Part shown: positions 38,438-60,152 of the stretch, piece by piece
Layout of the letters: each line of letters starts with the position of its first letter
How positions within the stretch are numbered: the first letter of the stretch is position 1
DNA from: a virus
Lineage: Duplodnaviria > Caudoviricetes
Length of the DNA stretch: 64,000 bases
IMG/VR virus record: IMGVR_UViG_3300033513_000001
Coordinates: 25,431 to 89,430 of that record
Strand: one strand, 5' to 3'
Translations under genes and position numbers: made by a program
The notes under the pieces: generated by a model
Database searches by the model: none
Told to the model about the DNA's origin: nothing
The model's input: only the letters and a program-made list of their open reading frames with translations

Positions 38438-38603
38438 GATTTGGGCCTACTGCCAATGCGTTGGGGAGCGCCACTCGGATTGGGCTGTCAAAGGCGCTCA
38501 GAACTTTGGCGGCGTTCTGATGACGGTGATTGAGTGCGAACGCTGTCACAAGTTGAAAAGAGTCAAGAAAGAGAATGGAGCGAAAAACGATGCAAGCAAG
38601 TAA
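38427..38603 (+). CDS. Small Cys-containing hypothetical protein
   Basis: YCQC...CERC; overlap coupling. Confidence 0.45.
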   Translation: MPPEIWAYCQCVGERHSDWAVKGAQNFGGVLMTVIECERCHKLKRVKKENGAKNDASK

Positions 38604-39339
38604 AGCCCAAACCATCATCGCCTATATCACGGCTGGACTCGTTGTGTTCCTGACGGCCTCAGCTTTCATCCTGAGCTACGAGAGCCTTAGACTCTTGGCG
38701 CAACAGAATGGGATTGAGGGATGGCTCTCGTTCTTGTGGCCTCTGACGTTGGACGCCGTGATGATCGCTGTCAGCATGAGCATCCTGTACCGTAGCCTGA
38801 CAGGTCAGGGCAGTTGGTATCAATGGTTCTTAGTTGGGTTCTTTACCGTAGCCAGTGTATCCTACAATGCCATTCATGCGCCTAGCACTTGGCTGGCAAG
38901 AAGCGTGTATGCTCTCCCGCCGTCTGTGGTGTTCATCGCGTTTGAGCTTTTGGCCTCACAAGTAAAGTTCTCGGTCAAGAGGCGCGGTACGATTGAGAGT
39001 CTTGGGGCAATCCAAGAGGCCAAGACTAGGGCGCAGGCCGAACTTGATGTACTGGAAAAGAAGGCCGACGAACTGGAAAGGCGCAATCAGGAACTTGAGT
39101 CTAAAGCGATTCTGCCAGAGCCGCCGTTGAAACTTGCCGAGCCAAGACCTGACAAGCAAGCAAAACAAGACATACTCTTGGCTACTCTAAAAGAGAATCC
39201 AGAAACCAGAGTCAAGGACTTGGCGGCGATTCTGGACGTTAGCCGACAGACCGTGTACAGTTACTTGGCAGACTTGGAAGCGGCGGGCAAGTTGCGAAGG
39301 AATGGGCATAACACAGTCGTTGAGAAGGAGAAAGCATGA
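38590..39339 (+). CDS. DUF2637-like membrane protein with coiled coil and C-terminal HTH
   Basis: AFILSYESL...LWPLTLDA TM bundle; VKDLAAILDVSRQTVYSYL HTH. Confidence 0.7.
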   Translation: MQASKAQTIIAYITAGLVVFLTASAFILSYESLRLLAQQNGIEGWLSFLWPLTLDAVMIAVSMSILYRSLTGQGSWYQWFLVGFFTVASVSYNAIHAPSTWLARSVYALPPSVVFIAFELLASQVKFSVKRRGTIESLGAIQEAKTRAQAELDVLEKKADELERRNQELESKAILPEPPLKLAEPRPDKQAKQDILLATLKENPETRVKDLAAILDVSRQTVYSYLADLEAAGKLRRNGHNTVVEKEKA

Positions 39340-46773: not shown

Positions 46774-47123
46774 CATTTGATGAGTGGTACAAGGAAAACG
46801 AGCGCCGTTTCCACACAGGACAGATGAACGAGAAGGAGATCGCTTGCGCCGCGTGGTATGAGAGCACGGAAAAGGACAAAGACATTGCGGAGTTGCGCCA
46901 GCGAGTAGAATTGCTGAAACTTCTATGCGATGAATGGGAGCGCCGCGTTGGAATGGCTCAGTTTGATGACGCATCGTTCTATGAGCCACAGATAGAACAA
47001 TTACGCGAGTCACTGGACAGTCAAGCGAAAAGTTGGAGGCGATTGTGGGAACTTATGAAAAAGGAGTTCAATCAAGGAAAAGGAAACTCAAAGAAAGTTG
47101 ACAAGCGTCTGCGCGGGTGGTAG
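46770..47123 (+). CDS. Hypothetical coiled-coil protein
   Basis: ATGA overlap. Confidence 0.55.
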   Translation: MTFDEWYKENERRFHTGQMNEKEIACAAWYESTEKDKDIAELRQRVELLKLLCDEWERRVGMAQFDDASFYEPQIEQLRESLDSQAKSWRRLWELMKKEFNQGKGNSKKVDKRLRGW

Positions 47124-47126
47124 AAT
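47098..47126 (+). promoter_or_regulatory. Near-consensus sigma70 promoter
   Basis: TTGACA-N17-TAGAAT with extended TG. Confidence 0.8.
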
Positions 47127-47133
47127 GAGACAC

Positions 47134-47233
47134 GTCGAAGGTGCGTTTCGTTTGCCAGCAGACCGCCGCCACTCTGTAACGCTCGCACCTTCGACAAGTC
47201 GGGCAAACGACAGGATGGCGGCGGTTTGCTTTT
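47134..47233 (+). ncRNA. Candidate structured leader RNA with three crossing helices
   Basis: 47134-45/47184-95 (12 bp), 47148-56/47202-10 (9 bp), 47158-71/47216-29 (14 bp, one G-U). Confidence 0.6.
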
Positions 47234-47250
47234 CAAACAGGAGGTAAACT

Positions 47251-48207
47251 GTGCTACTATGCGACAAGATGATAATGGGATTGCAACAAAGGAACAGTTT
47301 AGAAAAATATGACAGGAGTCTGCTAGAGGAACTGAATAAGACAACCGTTATCCTGATTGACAACGTTGCAAGATACTACTATGAGGACTCAGACCAAGAA
47401 TACTGGGACTTGCAGAGAGACTTTCCTAATGTTGCTCCGCCTCTCAGAAGTTTCTTTATGGAGTTCAGTAGTCCCAAATTCGTGAGGCACGAGGGAATTA
47501 TAGACGCGGTAACTCGCCCGACCTATAGGACTGGGCTTCTTTTTTCCTATGATGAAACAAAGGATGTGAAAAACGAGTCAGTTGAAAAGTTTTCCAAACA
47601 AGTTGGAGCGAAATGGATAGCCACCATTGTGATTTTCTACGATTATGGAGGAAACATTAGTCGTGGCCCGATGTGCAGTCTTCTTATCAAGCCAGATGGT
47701 AGAATTGGGGAAATTCCGCCTAGTTTCGTGGTTGGCCTTTACAAGAATTATGTGGACAACATGAGGAAATGTGGGTTCAGCAATGACGAGGTAACTGACT
47801 CTGTGGCAATCACAATTGAGCCCGCTTTGCTGGCTATCAGCTTCATGCACTGCAAGAATGTAACAGTTAGGAAAGTGACAATACCCGCTGGCCTTATCAG
47901 GAAAGCAAGAAAAAAGCACCACCACGAACTGATACGCTACCACATCCTTGACATTGAGCCGATGAAAAAGGTCTTGCGCTCAGAAGGTAACTCAGAAAAG
48001 ACAGGACTCAAGCGCGCGCTACACATTTGTCGTGGTCACTTCAAGGACTACAACGATGGAAAGGGATTGTTCGGCAGGATTCACGGGCTATACTGGTGGG
48101 AGCAACATTTGAGAGGAAGCGTAGAGGAAGGAATCGTAAACAAAGACTACGAAGTACACTCAGTTGATGAGGAGGCGCAAAATGCCATACACAGTCAAGA
48201 CGCTTGA
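47251..48207 (+). CDS. Hypothetical phage protein
   Basis: AGGAGG SD; C-terminal HICRGHFKDY...WWEQHLRG...KDY. Confidence 0.7.
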   Translation: MLLCDKMIMGLQQRNSLEKYDRSLLEELNKTTVILIDNVARYYYEDSDQEYWDLQRDFPNVAPPLRSFFMEFSSPKFVRHEGIIDAVTRPTYRTGLLFSYDETKDVKNESVEKFSKQVGAKWIATIVIFYDYGGNISRGPMCSLLIKPDGRIGEIPPSFVVGLYKNYVDNMRKCGFSNDEVTDSVAITIEPALLAISFMHCKNVTVRKVTIPAGLIRKARKKHHHELIRYHILDIEPMKKVLRSEGNSEKTGLKRALHICRGHFKDYNDGKGLFGRIHGLYWWEQHLRGSVEEGIVNKDYEVHSVDEEAQNAIHSQDA

Positions 48208-49231: not shown

Positions 49232-49575
49232 CGAAAATGGCAAAAATTGGGGGTTGCACTGTGCAGCCCCTTTTTGTTGCCAATTGGTCGTCAAAATCGC
49301 CATTTGACAATCTTCACCAAACGGCTTTTGACGACTATACATAACGCCAAAAATACCGCTCTTGACCGTCCGATAGTCGTCAAATCGCAAAAATGACAAT
49401 CTTCAAATGTTCGATTTGACGACGTATAGACGTTTATCAATTCGTCGTCAAAAGTCGTTTCCTTAAGTATCTTGTGATGAAGATTATCAGACTAGGGAGG
49501 GTGCAATGCACCCCTCCCCCATTTTGTCAAAACAGCAAAATGATAATCTTCACGTATGCCCTTTTGACGACTTTG
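49226..49575. repeat. Iteron-like non-coding region (candidate replication origin)
   Basis: TTTGACGAC x3, inverse GTCGTCAAA x3, TGAYAATCTTCA x3 plus one inverse; ~89-bp periodicity. Confidence 0.6.
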
Positions 49576-49591
49576 CATAATCCTTTCCCTC

Positions 49592-49621
49592 TTGACAGAT
49601 AATATAAAATCATGCTATAAT
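49592..49621 (+). promoter_or_regulatory. Sigma70 promoter
   Basis: TTGACA-N18-TATAAT with extended TG. Confidence 0.75.
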
Positions 49622-49653
49622 TCTAATCATCACCAATTACAAAATCATCACCA

Positions 49654-49878
49654 ATGACAAAACTAGGTCGCCCACCCTTAGACCCGAAACCAGAGCAAGC
49701 CAGAAAAACGGCTTTGCTCAGTTTGCCTATTGCGGTGTGGAACACCGTCAGGCTGATGGCAGATGAGAACGGATTATCGGTGAACAATATGGAGATTGTC
49801 TTGCTCCAAGAGGCGCTAGAGGCGAGGAAGAAAAAGAGACTTGAGGAAAGTAAAGTTGAGGTCTTGAGTGTTCAATAA
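49654..49878 (+). CDS. Ribbon-helix-helix-like DNA-binding protein
   Basis: GRPP...LLSLPIAVWNTVRLMADENGLSVN pattern. Confidence 0.55.
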   Translation: MTKLGRPPLDPKPEQARKTALLSLPIAVWNTVRLMADENGLSVNNMEIVLLQEALEARKKKRLEESKVEVLSVQ

Positions 49879-56618: not shown

Positions 56619-56837
56619 CTAAGTGATGTCGTCTAATTCACATTCTTTTATGTACCGCGATGACGCCATTCTTGGAATGTGAATGTGATCCACTCCCGTT
56701 GCGACTATGCTTTCCACAATAGGGCGCAAGTCATCGCGGTACATTTGCCAACAGGTCATGGCTTGAGGATAACTGCATCCACGCTTCACGTCATGGTCAA
56801 TGACCATTCTAACAGCGCTGGTGATAAGCCCAGCCAC
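56619..56837 (-). CDS. Hypothetical protein (start uncertain)
   Basis: ORF track; leftward cluster. Confidence 0.35.
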   Translation of the reverse strand: MAGLITSAVRMVIDHDVKRGCSYPQAMTCWQMYRDDLRPIVESIVATGVDHIHIPRMASSRYIKECELDDIT

Positions 56838-58805: not shown

Positions 58806-59127
58806 AACAGCGGCCCTAAGCACAAAAATCACTAAGTTCCTAACTGGTTTATATGCCAACAAGCGTAGTTCGGCGCGATGGTCGAGTACAGCGGATCGGA
58901 CTACTAGGCAAGTGGCAGAGTGATAATCGTCACGTGTTATGTGTCACGTGGTAGGAATTGAGGCAATTTGACTAGAAGGACGCTTCTAGTCATACGTTAT
59001 GCAATGGGGGGGCATAGATGTATACATAGTACATCGGCCACCCGTGTTATATCTTGTCTGTATTCTACCTCAATTTCCTTGAGATTCCTCGATGTCACAT
59101 TACATTGTCACATCTTCTCTGGGCCTA

Positions 59128-59156
59128 TTGACTTTGCACCGATTCCGATGTATCAT
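59128..59156 (+). promoter_or_regulatory. Promoter of tyrosine recombinase
   Basis: TTGACT-N17-TATCAT with extended TG. Confidence 0.65.
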
Positions 59157-59198
59157 CATTGCAGAACGAAACACTTTTCTAGCCCGACAGGAGGCGCG

Positions 59199-60152
59199 AT
59201 GGCAGACCTAATGATAATTGAGCCAACAGAACTTGAGTCCAGCGTAGTGGTAGAGTACCTGACCAGCATCTCGGACGGAAGCAGGCCGACGATGAAGGGA
59301 GCATTGATTGAAACGGTGTCTATCCTGACAGGTGTAGAGCCTGAAAGGGTGAACATCTACGAGTTCAACTGGTCGAATGTCAAGGCGGTACACGTTGCGC
59401 TGGTCAAGGAGAAGATGTGGAAGAACGGGAACGCGGCGGGAACGGTCAACAAGAAATTGGCGGCGATTCGCGGGGTCATGGGGATGCTGTTTGAGCGCGG
59501 GGCGGTGAAGGCAGAGGACTACTTGCGGATTACGCGGGTCAAGAACATCAAGGGAAGCGCCTTGCCGGCGGGCCGAAGGCTTGGAGTGGATGAAATCAAG
59601 GCTCTGGTTGGAGCGTGCGAGGCCGACAAGACTGTGTTTGGGGTGCGGGACGCGGCTATCATCGCGGTGTTGCGGAAAACGGGCCTGAGGCGGGAAGAAG
59701 TAGCGAGTTTGGACTTGTCAAGTTGCGTGTCAGGCTACTTGCGATTCGTGGGCAAGGGCAACAAGGAAAGGGAAGTACCGTTGTCTGGGCAAGCGAGAGA
59801 AGCCATTGAGAACTGGCTCAAGGTGCGCGGGAGCGGGGTGGGTGCATTGTTCTGCGGCGTGAACGGGTACGGCGAGGTCAAGACAGAAAAGCACCTGGCG
59901 CTGCGCTCCATCAACGTCATCTTGGCGAAGCGGGCAGCAGAAGCGGGAATCAAGGATTTTACCCCGCATGATTTTCGTCGTACTTTCGCCACAGACTTGC
60001 TGGACAGCGGGACAGACATAGGAATTGTCAAGGGTCTGATGGGTCATTCCGATGTGCAGACCACGCTGAGGTATGACCATCGAGACGATAAGGGAAAGCG
60101 AGAGGCGGTTGAGTTTCTGGACAAACTGGATGGAGGCAATCATGGACATTGA
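59199..60152 (+). CDS. Tyrosine recombinase/integrase (XerC/D-like)
   Basis: AGGAGG SD; RD...TGLRREE, GKGNKER, HDFRR, LMGHSD, TTLRY catalytic residues. Confidence 0.95.

What the first reader, a model, noticed from the sequence alone, without database searches (positions are those of the whole stretch)
47098..47253. Promoter-proximal RNA with three mutually crossing helices (A-B-C-A'-B'-C')
Seen: right after TTGACA-N17-TAGAAT, three segments (12, 9 and 14 nt) are followed by their reverse complements in the same order, not nested; then TTTTC, an AGGAGG SD and a 318-aa gene. Three long exact complements within 100 nt are unlikely to be accidental, and the topology is not a terminator or simple hairpin. 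Inference: a novel multi-pseudoknot leader, switch or ribozyme, a self-dimerising RNA, or an antitoxin-like sRNA for the downstream gene.
Basis: partly seen in the sequence, partly recalled or inferred. Interest (0 to 1): 0.7.

Follow-up and report, generated by a model that had tools for sequence, protein, structure and literature searches.

The report
Phage leader RNA clamping its terminator
Just after a strong promoter, this phage makes a roughly 100-base leader RNA whose first bases pair with the loop of a stop-signal hairpin placed before the gene. Four other phage leaders show the same interlocked layout with unrelated sequences, so it is probably a real, uncatalogued RNA control element whose exact action is untested.

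Summary
After TTGACA-17-TAGAAT, three segments (A 12 nt, B 9 nt, C 10 nt exact; 15 nt with one G.U) are followed by their complements in the same order, then UUUU, AGGAGG and a 318-aa gene.

It is not chance. I found the same layout, with no sequence similarity, in four other uncultured phage or metagenome contigs that carry the same gene family:
- a near-consensus promoter;
- arm A starting 5-7 nt after the -10 box, at the likely transcript start;
- partner A' lying in the 31-41-nt loop of a hairpin C:C' just before the ribosome site; four of five are followed by a U run.

The full A-B-C-A'-B'-C' order recurs in two of these four. No Rfam 15 family matches.

Best reading: a cis-acting leader in which a 5'-terminal helix, which forms first, interlocks with a terminator-like hairpin without sharing bases. 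This would set read-through and/or ribosome access for the early operon. The direction and the trigger are not known.

The ribozyme, antitoxin and dimer ideas have no support. The claim that the element has nothing to do with a terminator is wrong.

Follow-up agents of this scan described the same "terminator-clamping leader" design in other phages. I found no paper describing it. The downstream protein's only structural match is AcrVA2, and that match is weak.

The parts
47098..47126 (+). Sigma-70-type promoter: TTGACA, 17 nt, TAGAAT, with TG at 47118-47119. It lies inside the 3' end of the upstream 117-aa ORF, whose stop codon is 47121-47123.
   Evidence: 11 of 12 matches, TG present. The phage record has nine sites at 11/12 or better, so it does use such promoters.
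47134..47145 (+). Arm A. It starts 7-8 nt after the -10 box, so it is the inferred 5' end of the transcript.
   Evidence: 12 bp exact with 47184-47195. The position at the inferred start recurs in four other leaders.
47148..47156 (+). Arm B. It can also pair through 47150-47156 with GGUAAAC at 47243-47249, next to the ribosome site.
   Evidence: 9 bp exact with 47202-47210. The alternative pairing appears in the minimum-energy fold. Shuffle test 23 of 20000.
47157..47177 (+). Arm C, the 5' strand of the terminator-like hairpin. The G+C-rich exact core is 47162-47171.
   Evidence: 21 nt with two G.U and one A.C. The 15-bp part alone is worth -27.4 kcal/mol.
47184..47195 (+). Arm A'. It lies inside the 32-nt loop of the C:C' hairpin.
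47202..47210 (+). Arm B'. It lies at the 3' end of the same loop and abuts C'.
47210..47234 (+). Arm C' (47210-47230) followed by UUUUC. Its 3' half (47222-47233) can pair instead with the SD and start codon at 47240-47251.
47239..47253 (+). Ribosome site: AGGAGG 47239-47244, a 6-nt spacer, and GTG start at 47251.
47251..48207 (+). 318-aa gene of a large uncharacterised phage family. Its only structural match is AcrVA2, and that match is weak.
   Evidence: 1032 homologues, best 47% identity; no Pfam family; phrog_20769, unknown function; model pLDDT 79.5; 7ci1 Z 6.0 with 177 residues aligned; next match Z 2.7.

Best explanation
The stretch encodes a cis-acting 5' leader RNA of an early phage operon (the 318-aa AcrVA2-like gene, then an AAA_25 helicase-like gene). 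It is built as a 'clamped terminator'.

Layout:
- Transcription starts at or next to arm A.
- About 50 nt later A' is made, and the 12-bp A:A' helix forms first.
- A' and B' lie in the large loop of a G+C-rich hairpin C:C'. This hairpin is followed by a U run and stands just before the ribosome site.
- B:B' adds a second tie between the 5' region and that loop.

Because the clamp (A:A', B:B') and the hairpin (C:C') share no bases but cross each other, the hairpin cannot simply displace the clamp. Either a strained pseudoknot forms, or one structure excludes the other for steric and topological reasons.

I infer that this interplay sets how many polymerases read past the U run, and/or whether the ribosome site is free. 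My preferred direction is: clamp formed means hairpin incomplete, so read-through and translation; clamp absent means full hairpin, so a stop and/or a masked ribosome site.

Shown: the sequence features, their recurrence, the order of folding in energy models, and the near-equal energies of the two nested states.

Inferred: that the RNA is made from this promoter, that C:C' terminates, the direction of the effect, and the signal, if there is one.
For: 1. Recurrence without sequence similarity. Five independent leaders share the layout: the window, L107/L108, L119/L120, L177 and L002/L118.
   - Each has a promoter with an exact TTGACA and 10-11 of 12 matches.
   - A exact-WC core of 10-14 bp starts 5-7 nt after the -10 box.
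   - A' lies in the 31-41-nt loop of a hairpin whose longest exact run is 10-14 bp (17-21 nt at 83-95% when extended), just upstream of the start codon.
   - A U run follows that hairpin in four of the five.
    Pairwise blastn between the leaders finds only 7-9-nt words.

2. Statistics. A long-range arm of 12 nt or more starting 3-10 nt after a given position occurs at a rate of 0.00059 at random positions of the same DNA. That predicts 0.07 cases among the 112 promoter-like sites at 10/12 or better. Three independent cases were seen besides the window's own, plus one of 10 bp.

3. The full A-B-C-A'-B'-C' order recurs in L107 and L119. B helices of 9 bp (one G.U) and 8 bp were matched by 40 of 20000 and 34 of 20000 shuffles; the window's B by 23 of 20000.

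4. RNA on the + strand. All four isolated non-Watson-Crick positions inside otherwise perfect helices are G.U on the + strand; overall there are 7 G.U against 3 A.C.

5. Folding.
   - In all five leaders A:A' is fully present in the minimum-energy fold of the RNA made up to just before C'. Once C' (in L107, plus the next 8 nt) is present, the nested optimum flips to C:C' in four of five (for the window).
   - The best A-containing and best C-containing nested folds differ by 4.1, 0.9, 5.1, 3.4 and 0.5 kcal/mol.

6. Links to translation.
   - In L119 the SD GGAGG lies inside C', and the start codon follows the U run directly.
   - In L107 A' is exactly complementary over 12 nt to the ribosome site as well as over 14 nt to A.
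   - In the window, B or the 3' half of C' can mask the ribosome site.

7. Context. Four of the five leaders head or lie within the operon that carries the 318-aa family gene; L177's leader directly follows that gene.

8. Precedent. Structure next to an intrinsic terminator can suppress termination without sharing bases with it ('tug-of-war', bioRxiv 10.64898/2026.06.17.733018).
Against: - There are no expression data.
- No leader with alignable sequence exists, so there is no base-by-base covariation. The support is at the level of whole helices, and the layout was defined after I had seen the first case.
- C:C' is an atypical terminator. Its loop is 32 nt, only four U follow it, and its base pairs next to the U run are A/U- and G.U-rich. 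The consensus terminator scan did not call it.
- L002/L118 has no clear U run. In L177, B is nested with A rather than crossing it.
- Most relatives of the gene (about 190 loci) have no such leader.
- The A arms are perfect Watson-Crick in all five leaders (61 bp, no G.U). That is unusual for an intramolecular RNA helix and would also fit recognition in trans or a DNA-level constraint.
- The links to the ribosome site differ from leader to leader.
Confidence: 0.6

Rival explanations
1. The product is the short terminated RNA itself, about 100 nt from A to the U run, and it acts in trans. Its exposed A'B' loop or its free 5' arm would pair with nascent leaders of the same or a superinfecting phage and shift them towards termination or translational block. 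This would be RNA-based immunity or a timing device, like P4 CI RNA or P1/P7 c4 RNA, with phage-specific arm sequences.
For: - Complementary blocks lie in the same order, which is the signature of several separate contacts rather than one hairpin.
- The arms differ completely between phages while complementarity is kept.
- The A arms are perfect Watson-Crick.
- In L107 a third copy of A sits on the ribosome site and is complementary to A'.
- The promoter is strong and has no visible operator.
- From my own knowledge: in P4, and in P1/P7 (Citron and Schuster 1990, listed), the regulatory RNA lies in the leader of the operon it controls and pairs with repeated short blocks.
Against: - Pairing in cis is favoured, because both partners sit within 100 nt of each other.
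- No further convincing target sites exist elsewhere in the 89-kb record.
- Rfam's C4 family and all other families gave no match.
- There is no evidence that a short RNA accumulates.
Confidence: 0.15
2. All three helices form together as a compact, interlocked fold (an ABCABC pseudoknot: three helices joined by a junction at each end). Its job would be structural: a nuclease-resistant 5' cap-like domain that stabilises the mRNA, or a platform or decoy for a protein (RNA polymerase as with HK022 put RNA, RNase III, or a host sensor).
For: - B:B' is never competitive in nested folds (-36.6 against -55.9 kcal/mol in the window). Yet it recurs in three leaders, so it makes sense only together with A or C.
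- The helix cores are about one turn each (12, 9 and 10 bp).
- The linkers (2, 0-5 and 6-12 nt at one end; 6 and 0-5 nt at the other) would allow a side-by-side bundle. This is my own geometric reasoning.
- Having the 5' end of the transcript paired is a known way of stabilising bacterial mRNA (established knowledge).
Against: - Crossing helices longer than about one turn need an end to be threaded through a loop, which a nascent RNA held by polymerase cannot do. This is my own inference.
- L177 and L118 lack a crossing B.
- No sequence motif is shared between the leaders, as a protein site would require.
- No three-dimensional or pseudoknot-aware computation was possible here.
Confidence: 0.12
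3. The repeats act in the DNA, as split binding sites for phage proteins at the start of the replication module or as part of an origin.
For: - The element lies before replication-type genes (AAA_25).
- Arm A covers the inferred transcript start, where operators often sit.
- The A arms are perfect in both strands.
Against: - Each arm sequence occurs only once plus its complement, with 50-54 bp between the copies and three unrelated sequences. This is unlike iterons or operators. The phage's real iteron array, at 49280-49580, looks quite different.
- Isolated mismatches are G.T on the + strand only.
- The last helix is followed by a U run and stands just before a ribosome site in four of five leaders.
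Confidence: 0.05
4. It is a self-cleaving ribozyme, or a small-molecule riboswitch.
For: The crossing helices start at the first transcribed base, which is superficially like HDV-type ribozymes. The two alternative folds are nearly equal in energy.
Against: - No Rfam match even at E up to 10.
- No conserved unpaired nucleotides are shared by the five leaders that could form an active site or ligand pocket.
- The helices are far longer than in known ribozyme or aptamer cores.
Confidence: 0.03

Closest known systems
Classical terminator/antiterminator attenuators and riboswitch expression platforms (trp leader, T-box, pbuE, ZTP)
   Same: A promoter-proximal leader that ends in a hairpin plus U run before the first gene. 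An earlier-made structure competes with that hairpin. The two states are close in energy.
   Different: In those systems the antiterminator shares bases with the terminator and is displaced strand by strand. Here A:A' and B:B' share no base with C:C', and they cross it. No ligand pocket, tRNA site or convincing leader peptide was found.
'Tug-of-war' antitermination (Bushhouse, Fu and Lucks, bioRxiv 10.64898/2026.06.17.733018)
   Same: Structure that does not overlap the terminator suppresses intrinsic termination through steric competition. In the window, B abuts C and B' abuts C' with 0-5 nt between them.
   Different: In tug-of-war the structure lies wholly upstream of the terminator. Here one strand of the clamp lies inside the terminator loop, so the relation is pseudoknotted. 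No ligand is involved, and the effect is untested here.
P4 CI RNA and P1/P7 c4 antisense RNA immunity systems (own knowledge; Citron and Schuster 1990 as listed in PMC8198154)
   Same: Short complementary blocks in the same order lie within the leader of an early phage operon behind an active promoter. The pairing sequences are phage-specific. One target overlaps a ribosome site (as in L107).
   Different: Those RNAs are cut out of the transcript and act in trans. Here each block occurs once plus its complement, within 100 nt. There was no Rfam C4 match and no evidence for processing.
Lambda pR'-tR' (6S RNA) with Q, and HK022 put RNA (own knowledge)
   Same: A strong phage promoter is followed within about 100-200 nt by a terminator that must be passed to express the genes behind it. 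In HK022 a promoter-proximal folded RNA acts in cis on the polymerase.
   Different: No Q-like gene or binding site was identified. put is two plain stem-loops, not a 5'-end-to-loop clamp.
pyrG attenuation in Bacillus subtilis (own knowledge)
   Same: The extreme 5' end of the transcript pairs with the terminator region and decides termination.
   Different: In pyrG, extra G residues added at the 5' end pair with the terminator's own 5' strand. Here a templated 12-nt arm pairs with the loop.
'Terminator-clamping leader' design noted by earlier follow-up agents of this scan in other phages (e1-3267464, e1-5094544, e1-3426226, e1-3426228)
   Same: A promoter, a terminator-like hairpin whose loop pairs with the start of the same RNA, unrelated sequences in related phages, and no Rfam match.
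   Different: These are AI notes on other DNA, and I did not check their loci. The present case adds a third crossing helix (B:B') and a link to operons that carry an AcrVA2-like gene.

Membership tests
Any Rfam 15 family | A covariance-model match at or near the family's gathering score | tested here: not met
   Region 46800-47500 searched at E up to 10: the best score was 22 bits against a cut-off of 70, for unrelated eukaryotic snoRNA and miRNA models. Whole window at gathering score: 0 matches. The four sister leaders: only a tRNA elsewhere in L119.
Intrinsic (Rho-independent) terminator | A G+C-rich stem directly followed by a U run | tested here: inconclusive
   A 10-bp G+C-rich core lies in a 15-21-bp stem, followed by UUUUC. 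Four of five leaders have a U run. Only four U follow in the window, and the pairs next to them are weak.
Intrinsic (Rho-independent) terminator | A short loop (3-8 nt) that allows fast hairpin closure | tested here: not met
   The loop is 32 nt in the window and 31-41 nt in the others. The consensus scan does not call it.
Intrinsic (Rho-independent) terminator | Transcripts end at the U run | not testable with these tools
Classical terminator/antiterminator attenuator | The antiterminator shares nucleotides with the terminator stem | tested here: not met
   A and A' (47134-47145, 47184-47195) do not overlap C or C' at all; B and B' (47148-47156, 47202-47210) touch the extended C' only at base 47210.
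Classical terminator/antiterminator attenuator | Two alternative folds of similar stability, with the earlier-made one forming first | tested here: met
   Energy gaps of 0.5-5.1 kcal/mol in all five leaders. A:A' is present in the nascent-RNA optimum before C' exists.
Terminator-clamping phage leader (provisional class of this scan) | The start of the transcript pairs with the loop of a terminator-like hairpin placed just before the gene | tested here: met
   A starts 7-8 nt after the -10 box, and A' lies in the C:C' loop.
Terminator-clamping phage leader (provisional class of this scan) | The same layout recurs in other phages with unrelated sequences, more often than chance | tested here: met
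   Four further independent leaders. The null rate is 0.00059 for arms of 12 nt or more. No sequence similarity between them.
P1/P7 c4-type or P4 CI-type antisense immunity RNA | Membership of the known RNA family by sequence and structure | tested here: not met
   No Rfam match of any kind.
P1/P7 c4-type or P4 CI-type antisense immunity RNA | A processed short RNA that acts in trans on repeated target blocks, one of them at a ribosome site | not testable with these tools
   Only hints exist. L107 has a third copy of A on its ribosome site. The window's record holds no further convincing targets.
True ABCABC (three mutually crossing helices) pseudoknot | All three helices are present at the same time | not testable with these tools
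   ViennaRNA cannot score pseudoknots. The indirect argument is that B:B' recurs although it is never competitive in nested folds.
AcrVA2/FinQ protein family (for the downstream 318-aa gene) | Similarity of fold to AcrVA2 (PDB 7ci1) | tested here: inconclusive
   Foldseek E 7.8e-3, TM 0.29. VIA-align Z 6.0, rmsd 5.3, 177 residues aligned; next hit Z 2.7. The Z score is below the level that the tool's own notes call safe.
AcrVA2/FinQ protein family (for the downstream 318-aa gene) | Sequence-level match, and the conserved C-terminal His/Arg/His residues (H286, R288, H291 of AcrVA2) | tested here: inconclusive
   No PDB sequence hit with the profile or with the C-terminal part. No Pfam or NCBIfam family. 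The family does have an invariant HICRGHFK motif near the C-terminus, but its spacing differs, and I could not align it to AcrVA2.

The most novel reading that the evidence does not exclude
Phages use a class of leader RNAs in which a 5'-terminal helix and an intrinsic terminator are interlocked with no shared nucleotides. In the fullest form this is an ABCABC arrangement of three helices, each about one turn or longer. Termination and ribosome access would then be decided by whether the clamp is closed, that is by RNA topology rather than by strand displacement. The closure could be set in trans by copies of the same leader, which would give sequence-specific, RNA-only immunity or timing for anti-defence and replication genes.
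Probability: 0.3. Interest if true: 0.85.

Novelty: new variant of a known kind. Interest (0 to 1): 0.62.

Why it matters
If the clamp really controls the terminator, it would be a natural example of transcription control by two RNA structures that exclude or strain each other without sharing bases. That principle has so far been reported only in a 2026 preprint on 'tug-of-war' riboswitches.

It would also show how uncultured temperate phages gate an early operon that holds an AcrVA2-like (possibly anti-defence) gene and replication genes.

The arms can take any sequence as long as they stay complementary. The design would therefore be easy to re-engineer as a programmable genetic part.

It is also easy to overlook. 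It escapes sequence searches, terminator scanners and nested-fold programs alike.

Tried and rejected
- Sequence relatives of the leader:
  - blastn of the 3-kb region and of two sister leaders against GenBank phages found nothing.
  - blastn-short against 80 viral loci gave only chance words.
  - A pattern scan of IMG/VR for the A arms gave 24 hits, all unrelated chance palindromes. A scan for the C arms gave none.
- The nearest protein relative (47% identity, L082) has coding sequence upstream, not a leader. The only member of the protein's 90% cluster is the same phage assembled twice.
- Upstream regions of about 190 homologous loci (viral, metagenome and genome collections): most are internal to operons and have no leader. 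The G+C-rich ones give only chance or iteron-type crossing repeats.
- L130 (- strand) has a 10-bp arm after a weak promoter-like site. It is antisense to the gene and A+T-rich, so I judged it chance.
- Trans targets: near-matches of A (1 mismatch, 3 sites) and of C lie inside coding sequence and look like chance.
- Leader peptide: a 31-codon frame (UUG 47152 to UAA 47245-47247) crosses the leader, and L107 has a similar frame. The start signals are poor and not shared, so I kept this only as a note.
- Ribosome occlusion of A by the upstream ORF: the stop codon is 11-12 nt before A in the window and in L177, but 31-34 nt before it in L107 and L119. This is not general.
- The other strong promoters of this phage are followed by plain hairpins and terminators, not by clamps.
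- Literature: full-text searches found no paper that describes a 5'-end-to-terminator-loop clamp. The P4 immunity papers are not in the library.
Full report
**What is there.** The window is the last 64 kb of an 89,430-bp IMG/VR virus record. The phage is temperate: it has an integrase at 58968-60152 and an excisionase-like gene at 38575-39339. At 47098-47126 lies TTGACA, 17 nt, TAGAAT, with a TG two bases before the -10 box. The record has nine sites that match the sigma-70 consensus at 11/12 or better, including a perfect one at 49592, so the phage clearly uses such promoters.

Seven to eight bases after the -10 box the three arms begin:
- A: 47134-47145.
- B: 47148-47156.
- C: 47157-47177, with an exact core at 47162-47171.

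Their complements follow in the same order:
- A': 47184-47195.
- B': 47202-47210.
- C': 47210-47230.

After these come UUUUC, AGGAGG at 47239-47244 and GTG at 47251. The 14-nt C arm holds one G.T, so C is 10 bp exact, 15 bp with one G.U, or 21 nt at 86%.

**Not chance, and not a repeat family.** Markov simulations of the window give 0.2 triple-crossing sets per 64 kb even at the loose threshold of 8-nt arms. My estimate for arms of 12, 9 and 10 nt is about 3e-6 per window. The arms occur nowhere else in the window. The other cluster of crossing repeats, at 49287-49662, is an array of two short motifs repeated in both orientations next to the perfect promoter. That is an operator or iteron region, which is a different thing.

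**No known RNA family.** A permissive Rfam search of the region found only noise. The whole window has no hit at gathering score.

**The gene behind it.** The 318-aa product has no Pfam or NCBIfam family. It falls in a PHROG of unknown function. It has more than 1000 homologues in metagenomes, the best at 47% identity.

An AlphaFold model built on 26 sequences (pLDDT 79.5) has a single structural match, the anti-CRISPR AcrVA2:
- Foldseek: E 7.8e-3.
- VIA-align: Z 6.0 over 177 residues, with the next match at Z 2.7.

AcrVA2 homologues are reported to be widespread on mobile elements. They depend on conserved C-terminal His/Arg/His residues (bioRxiv 10.1101/2022.11.29.518452). The present family has an invariant HICRGHFK motif near its C-terminus. 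I treat 'AcrVA2-like' as a lead only, because sequence searches do not connect the two. The next gene is an AAA_25 helicase-like protein.

**The key result: the layout recurs.** The leader has no sequence relative anywhere I could search. The closest protein relative has coding sequence in its place. However, a scan of all fetched loci for crossing repeats and for promoters turned up four more leaders of the same build, each with unrelated sequence.

| Leader | Promoter | A:A' | B:B' | C:C' | After C' |
|---|---|---|---|---|---|
| L107/L108 | TTGACA-16-TATACT | 547-560 : 652-665, 14 bp | 580-588 : 667-675, 9 bp with one G.U | 619-639 : 676-696, core CCCCCGGCGAA | UUUUUGC |
| L119/L120 | TTGACA-16-TAAACT | 2794-2805 : 2889-2900, 12 bp | 2828-2835 : 2900-2907, 8 bp | 2856-2873 : 2909-2926, 11-bp core that contains the SD GGAGG | UUUUCU, then the ATG of the family gene |
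| L177 | TTGACA-17-TATATT | 10 bp (with B) | 8 bp, nested with A to form one 5' hairpin | 1049-1065 : 1097-1113, 17 bp with one G.U | UAUUUUC |
| L002/L118 | TTGACA-17-TAAAAT | 13 bp | none found | 19 bp with one G.U | no clear U run |

In L107, A' is also exactly complementary over 12 nt to the ribosome site.

In every case:
- A starts 5-7 nt after the -10 box.
- A' lies in the 31-41-nt loop of C:C'.
- C:C' is the last structure before the start codon.

The proteins of the five loci are 34-47% identical to each other, and the contigs range from 38 to 59% G+C. These are therefore separate lineages. Four of the leaders head or lie within the operon that holds the family gene, and the fifth directly follows that gene.

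**How unlikely is that?**
- At random positions of the same 1.1 Mb of DNA, a long-range exact arm of 12 nt or more starting 3-10 nt downstream occurs at a rate of 0.00059. For arms of 10 nt or more the rate is 0.0025.
- Among 112 distinct promoter-like sites at 10/12 or better, this predicts 0.07 and 0.28 cases.
- Leaving out the window's own case, I observed three independent arms of 12-14 bp and one of 10 bp.
- The middle helix B was tested by shuffling the region between A and C. Shuffles reached the observed run in 23 of 20000 (window), 40 of 20000 (L107) and 34 of 20000 (L119) trials.

So the full A-B-C-A'-B'-C' order is itself recurrent, in three of the five leaders.

**RNA or DNA, and which strand?** All four isolated non-Watson-Crick positions inside otherwise perfect helices are G.U on the + strand, which would be A.C on the other strand. 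Overall there are 7 G.U against 3 A.C. Add the start of A at the inferred transcript start, and the U run and ribosome site after C'. Together these point to an RNA made from the + strand, not a DNA site.

**How it may work.**
- Nested folding gives two competing states. In one, A:A' closes a 5'-terminal hairpin. In the other, C:C' forms a long terminator-like hairpin.
- Their energies differ by only 4.1, 0.9, 5.1, 3.4 and 0.5 kcal/mol in the five leaders.
- In all five, A:A' is fully present in the optimum of the RNA made up to just before C'. Once C' (in L107, plus the next 8 nt) is made, the nested optimum flips to C:C' in four of five.
- The two helices share no base, so there is no strand-displacement path from one to the other. 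C' must either pair with C inside the loop closed by A:A', giving a pseudoknot, or wait for a 10-14-bp perfect helix to melt.
- A crossing helix longer than about one turn needs an end threaded through a loop, and the polymerase holds the 3' end. From this I infer that a closed clamp keeps the base of C:C', next to the U run, from forming in time, and so favours read-through.
- L119 and L107 fit this direction. In L119 the SD lies inside C', so the gene can be translated only when C:C' is open. In L107 the open clamp frees A' to mask the ribosome site.
- The opposite direction cannot be excluded. A:A' and B:B' bring the 3' end of C next to the 5' end of C', like a three-way junction, and this could speed up hairpin nucleation.
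- A recent preprint shows that structure next to a terminator can suppress termination without overlapping it ('tug-of-war'). That is a precedent for the principle, not a test of this case.
- B:B' is never competitive in nested folds, so its recurrence argues that at least two crossing helices coexist.

**Rivals.** The short terminated RNA could act in trans. The same-order complementary blocks, the phage-specific arms, the perfect A arms and the extra copy of A on the L107 ribosome site recall the P4 CI and P1/P7 c4 immunity RNAs (own knowledge; the reference is listed). Against this, I found no further targets in the record and no family match. A purely structural role (5'-end protection, or a protein platform) and a DNA-level role are less likely, for the reasons given in the rival entries. 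A ribozyme or a riboswitch has no support.

**Relation to earlier notes of this scan.** Follow-up agents described the same design in other phages: a leader whose start pairs with the loop of its terminator, unrelated sequences in relatives, and no Rfam match (e1-3267464, e1-5094544, e1-3426226, e1-3426228). I reached my reading before seeing these notes, and I did not check their loci. They agree with my reading but are not independent proof. My full-text searches found no paper that describes such a clamp.

**Verdict.**
The rest of that reading is not supported.
- Function and direction remain inferred, because no expression data or alignable relatives could be obtained.

Noticed in passing
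window 49280-49662: A 640-bp gap after the helicase-like gene holds many copies of GTCGTCAAAA and TGACAATCTTCA in both orientations. Next to them are a perfect consensus promoter (TTGACA, 18 nt, TATAAT) at 49592-49621, two 18-nt direct repeats at 49625-49660, and a 74-aa gene at 49654-49878. It looks like an operator or iteron (immunity or origin) region.
   Followed up: partly
window 29565-29666 (- strand); also the part of the record before the window (window coordinates -24585 and -4885 on the - strand, -3980 on the + strand): Near-consensus promoters are followed after 65-90 nt by strong terminators. Three of these units share a small 5' hairpin and the terminator tail GGTTGTTTTTGTGTC. They could be small RNA genes or promoter-proximal terminators, which would hint that this phage relies on antitermination.
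   Followed up: partly
window 47251-48207: The only structural match of the 318-aa protein is the anti-CRISPR AcrVA2 (7ci1; Z 6.0, next match 2.7). The family has an invariant C-terminal HICRGHFK motif and more than 1000 metagenomic homologues across many phyla (Actinomycetota, Chloroflexota, Acidobacteriota, Elusimicrobiota, Saccharibacteria).
   Followed up: partly
window 56636-56744: A second pair of crossing exact inverted repeats: 10 bp (56636-56645 with 56675-56684) and 15 bp (56650-56664 with 56730-56744). There is no obvious promoter, and they may lie inside a small ORF on the - strand.
   Followed up: no
window 47152-47247; L107 588-722: An open frame of 31 codons (UUG start, preceded by GAAGGUG inside arm A) runs through the whole leader and stops at UAA just after the SD of the 318-aa gene, overlapping it by one base. 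L107 has a 44-codon frame that ends on its ribosome site. A leader peptide is not excluded, but the start signals are weak.
   Followed up: partly
L119 1160-2217: In this sister contig a tRNA gene (2144-2217, - strand) and a tyrosine integrase (1160-2089, - strand) lie about 0.6 kb upstream of the clamped leader. The leader and the family gene therefore sit near one end of an integrated element.
   Followed up: no
L002 252-437 / L118 1231-1416: The first ORF after this leader reads like the C-terminal end of a tyrosine recombinase (...IQELLGH..LETTMIYVHL). It may be a gene fragment.
   Followed up: no
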